Of a stretch of 64,000 nt of DNA, positions 22,750-25,700 are shown piece by piece; positions within the stretch are counted from its first letter, which is position 1; each line of letters begins with the position of its first letter. Position numbers: made by a program. The stretch lies in the NCBI RefSeq assembly GCF_045037415.1, contig NZ_CP173438.1, one strand, 5' to 3'. Origin of the DNA: Escherichia coli (GTDB taxonomy: Bacteria > Pseudomonadota > Gammaproteobacteria > Enterobacterales > Enterobacteriaceae).

Positions 22750-25700
22750 TAATTACACGTTAATTAGTTTTGAATTGAAAAGGGCGCTTCGGCGCCCTTT
22801 TTGCATTTGTTGACTGCATATCTTATTCGTACTGTCAGAACGAATAACTTATTCATATTTAAAATATCAATTCAATTTAATATTTTAAATATGAATGTTT
22901 CTGTTTTAAAAATGCTTCATTTGTCAGGCTTTTTTCTTATTTTTAATGCCGCACTTTAATTCATATTGAAGGGTTCTCGTAAAACGTAAATAATTCCTGC
23001 GTAGGACTTTTGTTTTGCAGTTTTTACGTTACAAGGGATTATAATGAAATTAAATATATTTACTAAATCTATGATTGGTATGGGGCTGGTGTGTTCCTCT
23101 CTGCCAGCATTGGCAATGGAAGCATGGAATAATCAACAAGGTGGTAATAAATATCAGGTTATTTTCGATGGCAAAATTTATGAAAATGCCTGGTGGGTTT
23201 CTTCTACAAATTGCCCGGGAAAAGCGAAAGCAAATGATGCAACTAACCCGTGGCGTTTAAAGCGTACCGCAACAGCTGCTGAAATTAGTCAGTTTGGCAA
23301 TACACTTTCCTGCGAAAAGAGCGGAAGCTCATCTTCTTCAACTTCAAATACGCCAGCATCTAATACGCCCGCTAATGGCGGTTCGGCTACACCAGCACAG
23401 GGCACTGTTCCGTCTAATTCTTCTGTAGTTGCCTGGAATAAACAGCAGGGCGGTCAAACCTGGTATGTCGTCTTTAATGGTGCGGTATATAAAAATGCCT
23501 GGTGGGTAGCCTCTTCTAACTGCCCGGGTGATGCGAAAGGCAATGATGCCAGCAACCCATGGCGTTATGTTCGTGCCGCTACGGCAACGGAAATCTCAGA
23601 AACCAGTAATCCACAGTCTTGTACTTCAGCACCACAGCCTGCACCGGATGTGAAACCGGCACCGGACGTTAAACCGGCCCCTGATGTTCAGCCAGCCCCA
23701 GCTGATAAGTCAAACGACAACTATGCTGTTGTAGCCTGGAAAGGTCAGGAAGGTTCTTCTACATGGTACGTTATCTACAACGGCAGCATTTATAAGAACG
23801 CCTGGTGGGTAGGCGCGGCAAATTGCCCAGGCGATGCGAAAGAAAACGATGCCAGCAACCCATGGCGTTATGTTCGCGCGGCAACGGCAACAGAAATCAC
23901 TCAGTATGGTAACCCAGGCTCCTGTTCCGTTAAGCCGGATAATAATGGCGGTGCTGTGACTCCGGTTGATCCAACTCCGGAAACACCGGAAACTCCAGTT
24001 ACTCCAACTCCGGATAACAACGAGCCATCAACACCAGCGGATAGCAGTAACGATTACTCACTGCAGGCGTGGAGTGGCCAGGAAGGCAGCGAAATTTACC
24101 ATGTTATCTTCAATGGTAATGTTTATCAGAATGCCTGGTGGGTTGGTTCTGAAGATTGCCCGCGTGGCACCAGTGTAGAAAACTCCAATAACCCATGGCG
24201 TCTCGTGCGTACAGCTACCGCTGCGGAAATGAGTCAGTACGGTAACCCGACTACCTGTGAAATTGATAATGGCGGCGTCATTATTGTGGATGGTTTCCAG
24301 GCCAGCAAAGCGTATAGCGCGAACAGCATCGTAGATTATAACGATGCACATTATAAAACCTCTGTCGATCAAGACGCATGGGGCTTTGTCCCCGGCGGCG
24401 ATAACCCGTGGAAGAAATACGAACCGGCGAAAGCATGGTCCGCTTCCACCGTGTACGTGAAAGGTGATCGCGTTGTTGTTGATGGGCAGGCTTATGAAGC
24501 GCTGTTCTGGACGCAAAGTGACAACCCTGCTCTGGTTGCGAACCAAAACGCCACCGGTAGCAATAGTCGCCCGTGGAAGCCGTTAGGTAAGACTCAGAGC
24601 TATAGCAACGAAGAGCTGAATAATGCGCCGCAGTTTAATCCAGAAACGCTTTATGCCAGTGATACGCTGATTCGCTTTAACGGTGAGAACTACATTTCTC
24701 AGAGTAAAGTGCAGAAAGTTTCTCCTTCTGACAGCAACCCGTGGCGTGTCTTTGTTGACTGGACCGGAACCAAAGAGCGCGTAGGTACGCCGAAGAAAGC
24801 GTGGCCGAAACACGTTTATGCACCGTATGTCGACTTTACGCTGAATACGATCCCGGATCTGGCTGCGCTGGCTAAGAATCATAACGTCAACCACTTCACG
24901 CTGGCGTTTGTGGTGAGTAAAGATGCGAACACCTGTCTGCCGACATGGGGGACCGCTTACGGTATGCAGAATTACGCTCAGTACAGCAAAATCAAAGCGC
25001 TGCGTGAGGCTGGCGGTGATGTGATGCTGTCTATCGGTGGTGCTAATAATGCCCCGCTGGCAGCTTCCTGTAAGAACGTTGACGATCTAATGCAGCATTA
25101 TTATGACATCGTTGATAACCTGAACCTCAGAGTCCTGGACTTCGATATCGAAGGCACCTGGGTTGCGGATCAGGCATCTATTGAACGTCGTAACCTTGCT
25201 GTGAAGAAAGTGCAGGATAAATGGAAGTCAGAAGGCAAAGATATTGCTATCTGGTATACCTTGCCAATTCTGCCGACAGGCCTGACGCCGGAAGGGATGA
25301 ATGTCCTGAGCGATGCCAAAGCGAAAGGTGTTGAGCTGGCGGGTGTGAACGTGATGACAATGGACTACGGTAACGCTATTTGTCAGTCTGCAAACACCGA
25401 AGGCCAAAACATCCACGGTAAGTGTGCAACGTCTGCGATTGCCAACCTGCATGCGCAGCTGAAAGGCCTCTATGGCAATAAGAGTGATGCAGAAATTGAC
25501 GCCATGATGGGTACCACGCCGATGGTTGGCGTGAACGACGTTCAGGGTGAGGTGTTCTATCTCTCTGATGCTCGTCTGGTCATGCAGGATGCGCAGAAGC
25601 GTAATCTCGGTATGGTTGGTATCTGGTCAATCGCGCGCGACCTGCCGGGCGGCACTAACCTGTCTCCGGAATTCCACGGTCTGACTAAAGAACAGGCTCC

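What the first reader, a model, noticed from the sequence alone, without database searches (positions are those of the whole stretch)
22823..22896. Perfect 17-bp inverted repeat plus adjacent hairpin in the AT-rich region upstream of chiA
ATTCATATTTAAAATAT (22851-22867) and ATATTTTAAATATGAAT (22880-22896) are exact reverse complements separated by 12 bp; each arm also contains the internal palindrome ATATTTAAAATAT. Immediately upstream is an 8-bp-stem hairpin TTATTCGT / ACGAATAA (22823-22847). A perfect 17-bp palindrome is far longer than expected by chance even in AT-rich DNA. It lies 150-190 bp upstream of the chiA start, downstream of the tufA terminator. It is a plausible operator for a dimeric regulator or a nucleoid-protein (H-NS/IHF/Fis) nucleation site controlling the silenced chiA gene, or a cruciform-prone element.
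Basis: seen in the sequence. Interest (0 to 1): 0.4.

Follow-up and report, generated by a model that had tools for sequence, protein, structure and literature searches.

The report
AT-rich palindrome upstream of silenced chiA
The 17-bp inverted repeat is real and non-random, but it is a single-copy, E. coli-only, polymorphic palindrome inside the AT-rich, H-NS-silenced region upstream of the chitinase gene chiA, and nothing found here shows that its symmetry does anything.

Summary
The arms 22851-22867 and 22880-22896 are exact reverse complements, the longest perfect inverted repeat (IR) in the 64-kb window. None of 5000 dinucleotide shuffles of the spacer reached 17 bp. The "8-bp hairpin" is really a 25-bp palindrome (22823-22847), and a third palindrome bridges the two.

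The locus is E. coli fusA-tufA-chiA-bfd-bfr-gsp. The published chiA transcription start maps to about 23001, so the IR centre lies near -128. chiA is known to be H-NS repressed and BglJ-RcsB activated.

- The IR is single-copy per genome.
- The exact 46-mer is in 1557 of 3162 genomes that carry the element. 1465 carry the K-12 allele T22881C, which breaks a pair.
- All four variable pairs in 10 haplotypes break pairing. None is compensated.
- Eight chiA orthologues from other genera, six with the same gene order, keep AT-rich upstream DNA. One closely related sequence also keeps the core promoter. None has the IR.
- There is no Rfam, terminator, Fis or IHF match, and only moderate H-NS-motif fits.

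Best reading: a lineage-specific palindrome produced by mutation (template switching or local duplication) within generic H-NS-binding DNA. A dedicated operator or a hairpin function is not excluded but has no support. Interest is low.

The parts
21568..22752 (+). tufA (EF-Tu) coding sequence, the upstream neighbour
   Evidence: Annotated as tuf in the identical SK1144 locus. The ORF ends at 22752.
22776..22803 (+). tufA intrinsic terminator: GC-rich 12-pair stem, 4-nt loop, T-run
   Evidence: The only terminator-like site in 22700-23100. It is shared with E. coli genomes that lack chiA, and similarity to those genomes ends at 22804.
22823..22847 (.).
   Evidence: The T22824A polymorphism in BL21, F11 and ATCC 11303 breaks one pair. 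It is not palindromic in the closest outgroup, L019.
22842..22854 (.). P2: GAATAA-c-TTATTC palindrome bridging P1 and the IR, centre about -153. The central base 22848 is polymorphic: C here, A in most strains.
   Evidence: Read from the sequence. Polymorphism. It is probably the 'predicted motif about 150 bp upstream' that was mutated without effect in PMC3950696; that identification is my inference.
22851..22867 (.). Left arm of the perfect 17-bp inverted repeat (-150 to -134)
22868..22879 (.). 12-nt spacer of the IR. It pairs partly (2 more pairs after one mismatch), which leaves a 6-nt loop.
   Evidence: It is the site of loop polymorphisms, a 1-nt deletion, a 25-bp tandem duplication and an IS1 insertion in other strains.
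22880..22896 (.). Right arm of the IR (-121 to -105). Position 22881 is T here and C in K-12.
   Evidence: Allele counts.
22959..22966 (+). Third copy of ATTCATAT, abutting the -35 hexamer
   Evidence: (D4, I3)
22966..22994 (+). chiA core promoter: TTGAAG, 17-nt spacer, AATAAT
   Evidence: Promoter scan. The published start site (K-12 coordinate 3467918, PMC3950696) maps 43 nt upstream of the ATG, about 23001, which is 7 nt after the -10 hexamer. It is invariant in the E. coli haplotypes that retain chiA. The -35 and -10 are conserved in L019. An RpoS-holoenzyme SELEX peak lies at about 22989 (PMC5493296).
23044..25746 (+). chiA (bifunctional chitinase/lysozyme, 900 aa)

Best explanation
The IR and its two neighbouring palindromes are a lineage-specific piece of the AT-rich DNA upstream of the chiA promoter.

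Shown (literature): H-NS/StpA silences this promoter.

Inferred: H-NS binds this AT-rich tract, which runs from about -200 to about +300, and spreads or bridges across the promoter at about 23001. The IR contributes as ordinary AT-rich DNA with many TpA steps. It holds four symmetric 7/10 fits to the H-NS template.

Inferred: the symmetry itself is a mutational product. It could come from template switching that perfects quasi-palindromes, and/or from a local duplication of a 25-bp unit. It was present in the E. coli ancestor, is now drifting, and is not required for chiA control.
For: 1. Context: E. coli tufA-chiA spacer, 30% GC against 50% for the window. chiA is H-NS repressed and derepressed in a hns stpA mutant (PMC3950696).
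2. The 300-bp bin holding the IR has the most fits of 7/10 or better to the Lang et al. H-NS template in the 64-kb window. The other H-NS-silenced promoter region, gspC/gspA, ranks second.
3. No constraint on symmetry. 1557 genomes carry the exact 46-mer and 1465 carry the K-12 allele T22881C, which creates an A·C mismatch. Rarer arm changes G22893A and T22884C, and T22824A in P1, are all uncompensated: 4 variable pairs, 0 with changes on both sides.
4. Not conserved. Eight chiA orthologues (65-76% ChiA identity; six with the same synteny) keep AT-rich upstream DNA (25-36% GC) but no long IR other than the terminator of the gene upstream. L019 aligns along the whole spacer and keeps the -35 and -10, but not the palindromes.
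5. Single copy per genome, so not a repeat-element family.
6. Long perfect IRs are about 150-fold over-represented in E. coli non-coding DNA, which the authors attribute to template-switch correction (PMC5941160). The mechanism has been demonstrated in E. coli (PMC7202029).
7. The site is visibly mutable: a 25-bp tandem duplication, a 1-nt loop deletion and an IS1 insertion in the loop in other strains.
Against: - No H-NS footprint or ChIP data at base resolution were available, so H-NS occupancy of the IR itself is inferred.
- No fit of 8/10 or better to the H-NS template lies in the spacer.
- The outer 15 bp of each arm remain perfect in more than 95% of carriers. E. coli diversity is too low to tell constraint from recent common ancestry.
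- Three nested palindromes plus a repeated TATTC(G/A)TA word look more organised than drift alone would predict.
- By parsimony over 10 haplotypes the perfect allele looks ancestral, so the one common polymorphism is decay rather than an observed 'correction'.
Confidence: 0.58

Rival explanations
1. The palindromes are operators for a sequence-specific dimeric regulator or anti-silencer of chiA. One form is two 19-bp sites, TTCATATTT-N-AAATATGAA, 25 bp apart. Another is an array of RcsB-like half-sites, TATTC(G/A)TA. Candidates include the unmapped BglJ-RcsB site or an unknown chitin/GlcNAc-responsive factor.
For: - Strong dyad symmetry. Two 19-bp palindromes each differ by one mismatch from a common consensus and occur nowhere else in the window.
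- ATTC(A/G)TA occurs 4 times in the spacer out of 11 in 64 kb.
- The word resembles the RcsAB right half tatTCctA and the BglJ-RcsB core wwTTCykA (PMC3950696).
- chiA is activated by BglJ-RcsB, yet no binding site was found.
Against: - Absent from all orthologous chiA upstream regions in other genera.
- 46% of carriers have a broken pair, and no change is compensated.
- Mutating the predicted motif about 150 bp upstream had no effect on BglJ-RcsB activation, and no significant motif hit was found at chiA.
- No shared motif in the co-regulated gspC/gspA spacer.
- No Fis or IHF consensus, tested with patterns recalled from memory.
- The literature searches for NagC or ChIP-exo binding at chiA found nothing.
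Confidence: 0.15
2. The hairpins act in cis as structures. One version is RNA hairpins that serve as a back-up terminator or insulator, stopping read-through from the very highly expressed str operon (tufA) into chiA. The other is a supercoil-dependent DNA cruciform that modulates the promoter.
For: - Two stable hairpins lie directly after the tufA terminator: DNA -17.5 kcal/mol with z = -6.3, RNA z = -6.0.
- The right arm is followed by the T-rich GTTTCTGTTTT.
- AT-rich arms with a short effective loop favour extrusion (general knowledge).
Against: - The terminator scan finds only the GC-rich tufA terminator. The IR stem has a single G-C pair, unlike intrinsic terminators.
- No Rfam family matches.
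- Relatives with the same tufA-chiA arrangement lack the hairpins.
- Pair-breaking alleles are common and uncompensated.
- Strains without chiA place bfd directly after the same terminator, with no extra hairpins.
Confidence: 0.1
3. The palindromes are a scar of a mobile element or a site-specific recombination site, marking the edge of a chiA-containing insertion.
For: - They start 11-19 bp inside the point (22804/22805) where similarity to chiA-less E. coli ends.
- IS1 has inserted into the IR loop in one strain.
Against: - No partner repeat lies at the other end of chiA or anywhere else in the window.
- The element is single copy per genome.
- The tufA-chiA-bfd-bfr-gsp order is shared by Enterobacter, Citrobacter, Superficieibacter and unnamed relatives. 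chiA is therefore probably ancestral and was lost in some E. coli lineages, not inserted.
- The L019 spacer is colinear with this one but lacks the palindromes.
Confidence: 0.03

Closest known systems
H-NS-silenced AT-rich upstream regulatory regions (bgl, proU, leuO and the E. coli gspC/gspA and chiA promoters)
   Same: AT-rich DNA flanks a weak sigma-70 promoter. The gene is derepressed in hns (stpA) mutants and activated by the anti-silencer BglJ-RcsB (PMC3950696). There is a cluster of moderate fits to the tCGATAAATT template.
   Different: There is no 8/10 or better match to the high-affinity template. A perfect 17-bp IR is not a described feature of H-NS nucleation sites. H-NS occupancy of the IR itself was not shown here.
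Quasi-palindromes perfected by replication template switching (E. coli thyA hotspot, lacZ reporters; genome-wide excess of perfect IRs)
   Same: It is a short perfect IR in non-coding DNA, much longer than null models allow. It is absent or imperfect in the outgroup and sits at a mutable site (PMC7202029, PMC5941160).
   Different: No perfecting mutation was actually observed. The one common polymorphism (T22881C) appears to go from perfect to imperfect.
RcsAB box / BglJ-RcsB binding motif
   Same: The repeated word TATTC(G/A)TA matches 7 of 8 positions of the right half, tatTCctA. chiA is a BglJ-RcsB target.
   Different: The spacing of the half-sites does not fit the 14-bp RcsAB box. The authors found no significant motif at chiA, and mutating the predicted upstream motif had no effect.
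Rho-independent terminators
   Same: A stem-loop followed by a T-rich stretch, placed just after a gene end.
   Different: The stem is almost entirely A-T (1 G-C pair in 17). It was not called by the terminator scan, and the true tufA terminator lies 50 bp upstream.

Membership tests
H-NS-silenced regulatory region / H-NS nucleation site | AT content well above the genome average around the promoter | tested here: met
   The spacer is 30% GC and its core 24.5% GC, against 50% for the window.
H-NS-silenced regulatory region / H-NS nucleation site | The downstream gene is derepressed when hns (and stpA) are removed | not testable with these tools
   Literature only: chiA is H-NS repressed (Francetic 2000, cited) and is high in a hns stpA mutant by qRT-PCR (PMC3950696).
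H-NS-silenced regulatory region / H-NS nucleation site | A match to the high-affinity 10-bp template tCG(t/a)TA(a/t)ATt | tested here: inconclusive
   Four fits of 7/10 lie inside the IR, and the bin has the highest density in the window. No fit reaches 8/10 in the spacer, and such fits are common elsewhere.
H-NS-silenced regulatory region / H-NS nucleation site | Direct H-NS protection of the element | not testable with these tools
   No footprint or base-resolution ChIP data were accessible.
Operator of a dimeric transcription factor | Dyad symmetry of operator size | tested here: met
   17-bp arms, two 19-bp palindromes and the 25-bp P1.
Operator of a dimeric transcription factor | Conservation in orthologous promoters | tested here: not met
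   Absent in 8 orthologous chiA upstream regions from other genera. In the one closely related sequence aligned along the whole spacer, L019, the core promoter is conserved but the palindromes are not.
Operator of a dimeric transcription factor | Symmetry maintained within the species (few or compensated changes) | tested here: not met
   46% of carriers have T22881C. Of 4 variable pairs, 0 are compensated.
Operator of a dimeric transcription factor | A match to a known factor's motif, or recurrence at co-regulated genes | tested here: not met
   No Fis or IHF consensus (patterns recalled from memory). No copy in the gsp promoter region or elsewhere in the window. For BglJ-RcsB, no significant site was reported. 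A whole-genome regulon search was not possible.
Intrinsic (Rho-independent) terminator | A G+C-rich stem followed by a U-run | tested here: not met
   The scan calls only 22776-22803. The IR stem has one G-C pair.
Repetitive extragenic elements (REP/BIME, ERIC, MITEs) | Many copies per genome | tested here: not met
   The IR occurs once per genome. The median of 2 'places' is the palindrome matching itself on both strands.
Described structured RNA (Rfam) | A score above a family's gathering threshold | tested here: not met
   The best score is 20.9 bits against thresholds of 38-80 bits, and all matches are driven by the tufA terminator.
Template-switch-perfected quasi-palindrome | The IR is more perfect than the orthologous sequence in an outgroup | tested here: met
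   L019 aligns through the region, but its counterpart is not an IR.
Template-switch-perfected quasi-palindrome | Observed mutations that increase complementarity using the other arm as template | tested here: inconclusive
   The only common polymorphism lowers complementarity on the inferred derived haplotype. Proper polarisation needs a core-genome tree.
Cruciform-forming inverted repeat | Extrusion at physiological supercoiling | not testable with these tools
   Only the sequence prerequisites are shown: perfect AT-rich arms and a short effective loop.

The most novel reading that the evidence does not exclude
The three nested palindromes form a compound binding platform for an anti-silencer that opens the H-NS-silenced chiA promoter. 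They would act as two 19-bp TTCATATTT-N-AAATATGAA operators and/or redundant RcsB-type half-sites TATTC(G/A)TA. This could be the BglJ-RcsB site that Salscheider et al. could not map, or an unknown E. coli-specific regulator. Redundant copies would explain why a single-motif mutation had no effect.
Probability: 0.1. Interest if true: 0.45.

Novelty: new member of a known kind. Interest (0 to 1): 0.2.

Why it matters
chiA and its type II secretion system are textbook 'cryptic' H-NS-silenced genes. ChiA matters for the adhesion of some gut E. coli. If the palindrome were a real control element, it would identify the missing cis-site through which chiA is switched on.

The evidence here points the other way. 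The conserved features are AT-richness and the core promoter, and the eye-catching symmetry is not conserved. This is a caution that long perfect palindromes in AT-rich bacterial spacers can be mutational products. The natural T/C polymorphism at 22881 offers a ready-made test, because it splits E. coli roughly in half.

Tried and rejected
- Known RNA family: an Rfam scan of 22600-23200 on both strands at E up to 10 gave only sub-threshold hits driven by the tufA terminator.
- Repeat-element family: BLAST of the 86-nt and 46-nt segments against 5426 E. coli genomes found one locus per genome.
- Mobile-element end: no partner repeat in the window. The O157 comparison shows a divergent replacement rather than a clean insertion. 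Synteny across several genera argues that chiA is ancestral.
- Shared motif with the co-silenced gsp promoters: none. The hit at 37216 lies inside gspC and has 3 mismatches.
- Fis and IHF consensus patterns, recalled from memory: no match in the IR.
- ArgR, TorR, OmpR, NagC, KdgR and NikR resemblances were considered by eye only. Spacing or half-site order did not fit, and they were not tested formally.
- Literature: searches for NagC at chiA, ChIP-exo at chiA, and chiA/tufA spacer features gave nothing specific. Francetic et al. 2000 is not held.
- Small ORF 22801-22959 (52 aa, TTG start): rejected, because natural 1-nt and 25-bp indels occur within it.
- The genome-contig scan with ChiA returned only 3 loci. 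Orthologues were obtained through the protein search and contig look-ups instead.
- Chimaeribacter has a 17-nt, 82% IR at a similar distance from chiA. I treat this as chance, because the other seven relatives lack one.
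Full report
**Observation.**
- 22851-22867 (ATTCATATTTAAAATAT) and 22880-22896 (ATATTTTAAATATGAAT) are exact reverse complements, 12 nt apart.
- 22823-22830 and 22840-22847 form an exact 8-bp stem.
- The repeat finder extends the large IR to 20-nt arms with 19 of 20 paired and a 6-nt spacer.
- The upstream 'hairpin' is really a 25-bp palindrome, TTATTCGTaCTGtCAGaACGAATAA, with 11 of 12 pairs (P1).
- A third palindrome, GAATAAcTTATTC (22842-22854, P2), bridges the two.
- Each arm is itself a 6+1+6 palindrome. 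The 46-mer can therefore also be read as two 19-bp palindromes of consensus TTCATATTT-N-AAATATGAA, with centres 25 bp apart.

**Chance.** None of 5000 dinucleotide-preserving shuffles of the 291-bp spacer, or of its 24.5%-GC core, gave a perfect IR longer than 14 bp. This is the longest perfect IR in the 64-kb window. Single-strand folding is about 6 standard deviations better than shuffles, both as DNA and as RNA. The feature is therefore real and not chance. However, perfect IRs with arms of 13 bp or more are about 150-fold over-represented in E. coli K-12 non-coding DNA in general. The authors of that survey attribute the excess to template-switch 'correction' of imperfect IRs (PMC5941160). 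Non-randomness alone does not imply function.

**Context.** The window is E. coli, with the gene order tusBCD-rpsL-rpsG-fusA-tufA-chiA-bfd-bfr-gspO...C/gspA. The spacer is identical to that of strain SK1144.
- The tufA intrinsic terminator is at 22776-22803.
- A sigma-70-like promoter, TTGAAG-17-AATAAT, is at 22966-22994.
- The published chiA start site (K-12 coordinate 3467918, confirmed by 5' RACE; PMC3950696) maps 43 nt upstream of the ATG. That is about 23001, 7 nt after the -10 hexamer.
- An RpoS-holoenzyme SELEX peak maps to about 22989 (PMC5493296).
- Relative to this start, the IR arms cover -150 to -134 and -121 to -105. P2 is centred at -153 and P1 at -166.
- chiA is H-NS repressed and is expressed at a high level in a hns stpA mutant. 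BglJ-RcsB activates it, but no BglJ-RcsB box could be found. Mutating a predicted motif about 150 bp upstream of the start did not affect activation (data not shown in PMC3950696). That position coincides with P2 and the left arm.

**Distribution within E. coli.**
- 4862 of 5426 complete genomes match the start of the spacer, but only 3145 have all of it.
- The others, such as O157:H7 and E2348/69, share only the first 52 bp (the terminator) and have bfd directly after tufA.
- The IR occurs at one locus per genome. The '2 places' reported are the palindrome matching itself on both strands.
- Among 3162 carriers, 1557 have the exact 46-mer of the window.
- 1465 have the K-12 46-mer, whose T22881C change converts an A-T pair to A·C. 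This leaves 15-bp perfect arms.
- About 140 have other variants.
- These counts reflect what has been sequenced, including many K-12 derivatives, and are not population frequencies.

**Haplotypes.** Twelve sequences were sampled.
- Further arm changes are G22893A and T22884C. T22824A occurs in P1.
- The loop carries substitutions, a 1-nt deletion, a 25-bp tandem duplication of left arm plus loop, and an IS1 insertion (with chiA lost).
- A formal pair count on the 10 haplotypes that align without large rearrangements found 4 variable pairs. All depart by unpaired cells, and none has a change on both sides.
- The perfect allele occurs on several distinct haplotype backgrounds, whereas C22881 sits on one. 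By parsimony the perfect IR is ancestral in E. coli and the K-12 allele is decay. This is an inference from few haplotypes.
- The promoter-proximal 75 bp (22955-23029) are invariant in the eleven haplotypes that retain chiA.

**Other genera.** ChiA relatives were found by protein search and their contigs fetched.
- Six non-E. coli loci share the tufA-chiA-bfd-bfr-gsp order: Logan assemblies L019/L020 (76% ChiA identity), L023 (71%), Enterobacter L024, metagenome L025, and Superficieibacter L022 (same as UBA5654, L004). Citrobacter rodentium L021 has chiA directly after tufA.
- chiA is therefore probably ancestral here and was lost in some E. coli lineages, rather than being a recent insertion.
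- Two further loci lie in other contexts (Chimaeribacter L005 and L026).
- All upstream regions are AT-rich (25-36% GC). None has a long IR apart from the terminator of the gene upstream.
- L019 aligns with the window along the whole spacer and conserves the -35 and -10 region. The segments corresponding to P1 and the IR are not palindromic.
- Chimaeribacter has a 17-nt, 82% IR at a similar distance, which I treat as chance.

**Tests of specific identities.**
- No Rfam family matches, and the IR is not called as a terminator.
- There is no Fis or IHF consensus, using patterns recalled from memory.
- The gspC/gspA promoter region shares no motif.
- Scoring the Lang et al. H-NS template tCG(t/a)TA(a/t)ATt (PMC2094087) gives four 7/10 fits inside the IR. 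The bin has the highest density of 7/10-or-better fits in the window, and the gspC/gspA region ranks second. No fit reaches 8/10 in the spacer.
- The repeated word TATTC(G/A)TA resembles the RcsB half-site tatTCctA. This is a lead only, and the published mutagenesis argues against it.

**Interpretation.** What is conserved upstream of chiA is AT-richness and, in the one closely related sequence that aligns (L019), the core promoter. The palindromes are not conserved. The best-supported reading (about 0.58) is that they are a lineage-specific mutational product inside DNA that H-NS coats to silence chiA. The origin could be template switching in a quasi-palindrome and/or duplication of a 25-bp unit. 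On this reading the palindromes contribute as generic AT-rich, TpA-rich binding substrate, and their symmetry is not under detectable selection.

The rivals are:
- a dedicated operator or anti-silencer platform (0.15);
- a cis-acting hairpin or cruciform, such as a read-through insulator (0.10);
- a mobile-element scar (0.03).

E. coli diversity is too low to exclude weak constraint, and no protein-binding data at base resolution were available. The operator reading is therefore unsupported rather than refuted.

**Verdict.** The feature is real and the explanation ordinary. The region-level biology (H-NS silencing of chiA) is already known, and the palindrome itself has no described role and no comparative support for one. 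Interest is 0.2.

Noticed in passing
window 37430-37454: The gspC-gspA divergent promoter spacer is also AT-rich and H-NS silenced. It has its own AT palindrome, TATGTATTT-aattaat-AAATACATA, with 9-bp perfect arms. It is unrelated in sequence to the chiA IR.
   Followed up: partly
L016 (E. coli NT1N34), about 374 onward; corresponds to window ~22873: IS1 is inserted in the loop of the IR, and chiA is lost downstream. This suggests the AT-rich palindrome is an insertion or rearrangement hotspot.
   Followed up: partly
L015 (E. coli Z1323CEC0015); corresponds to window 22852-22876: A 25-bp tandem duplication of left arm plus loop (TTCATATTTAAAATATCAATTCAAT) occurs in a strain whose chiA is annotated as a pseudogene with an internal stop.
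   Followed up: no
window 22804/22805; L002 4001-4185: In 1717 of the 5426 complete E. coli genomes, including O157:H7 and E2348/69, only the tufA terminator part of the spacer matches. In the O157:H7 locus examined, chiA and most of gsp are missing, bfd follows the tufA terminator, and the bfd upstream region is only about 75% identical to the window's. A further 564 genomes gave no match at all.
   Followed up: partly
window 23044-25746; proteins P0001-P0064: ChiA comes in length variants: 900 aa here, 897 aa in K-12, and a common 799-aa E. coli form about 90% identical over 86% of the length. The difference appears to lie in the N-terminal carbohydrate-binding part. All variants have the same upstream spacer and IR.
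   Followed up: partly
window 22983-22990 and 23023-23030: An 8-bp perfect IR, AACGTAAA / TTTACGTT, brackets the -10 hexamer, the start site and the 5' UTR of chiA. K-12, BL21, F11 and APEC17 carry T23030C, which breaks its last pair. There is also a tandem CGTAAAA/CGTAAAT just upstream of the -10.
   Followed up: no
window 22882-22910, minus strand: Two overlapping sigma-70-like hexamer pairs (TTTAAA/TTAAAA ... TAAAAT) point away from chiA, with their -10 inside the right arm. They look like the spurious promoter-like sites typical of AT-rich H-NS targets.
   Followed up: no
L005 2833-2880 (Chimaeribacter arupi): A 17-nt, 82% complementary AT-rich IR (TCGTTATTTAATAAGAT / ATCTATTTAAATAAAGA, 14-nt spacer) lies about 120-170 bp upstream of a 65%-identical chiA in a different gene context. 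It is probably chance, and none of the other seven relatives has one.
   Followed up: partly
window 22848 and 22908: The window carries C22848 (the centre of palindrome P2) and A22908. Among the sampled haplotypes C22848 is shared only by L003 and HEC0475, and A22908 only by L003. Only 551 of 3163 genomes match the window exactly over 22815-22900.
   Followed up: partly
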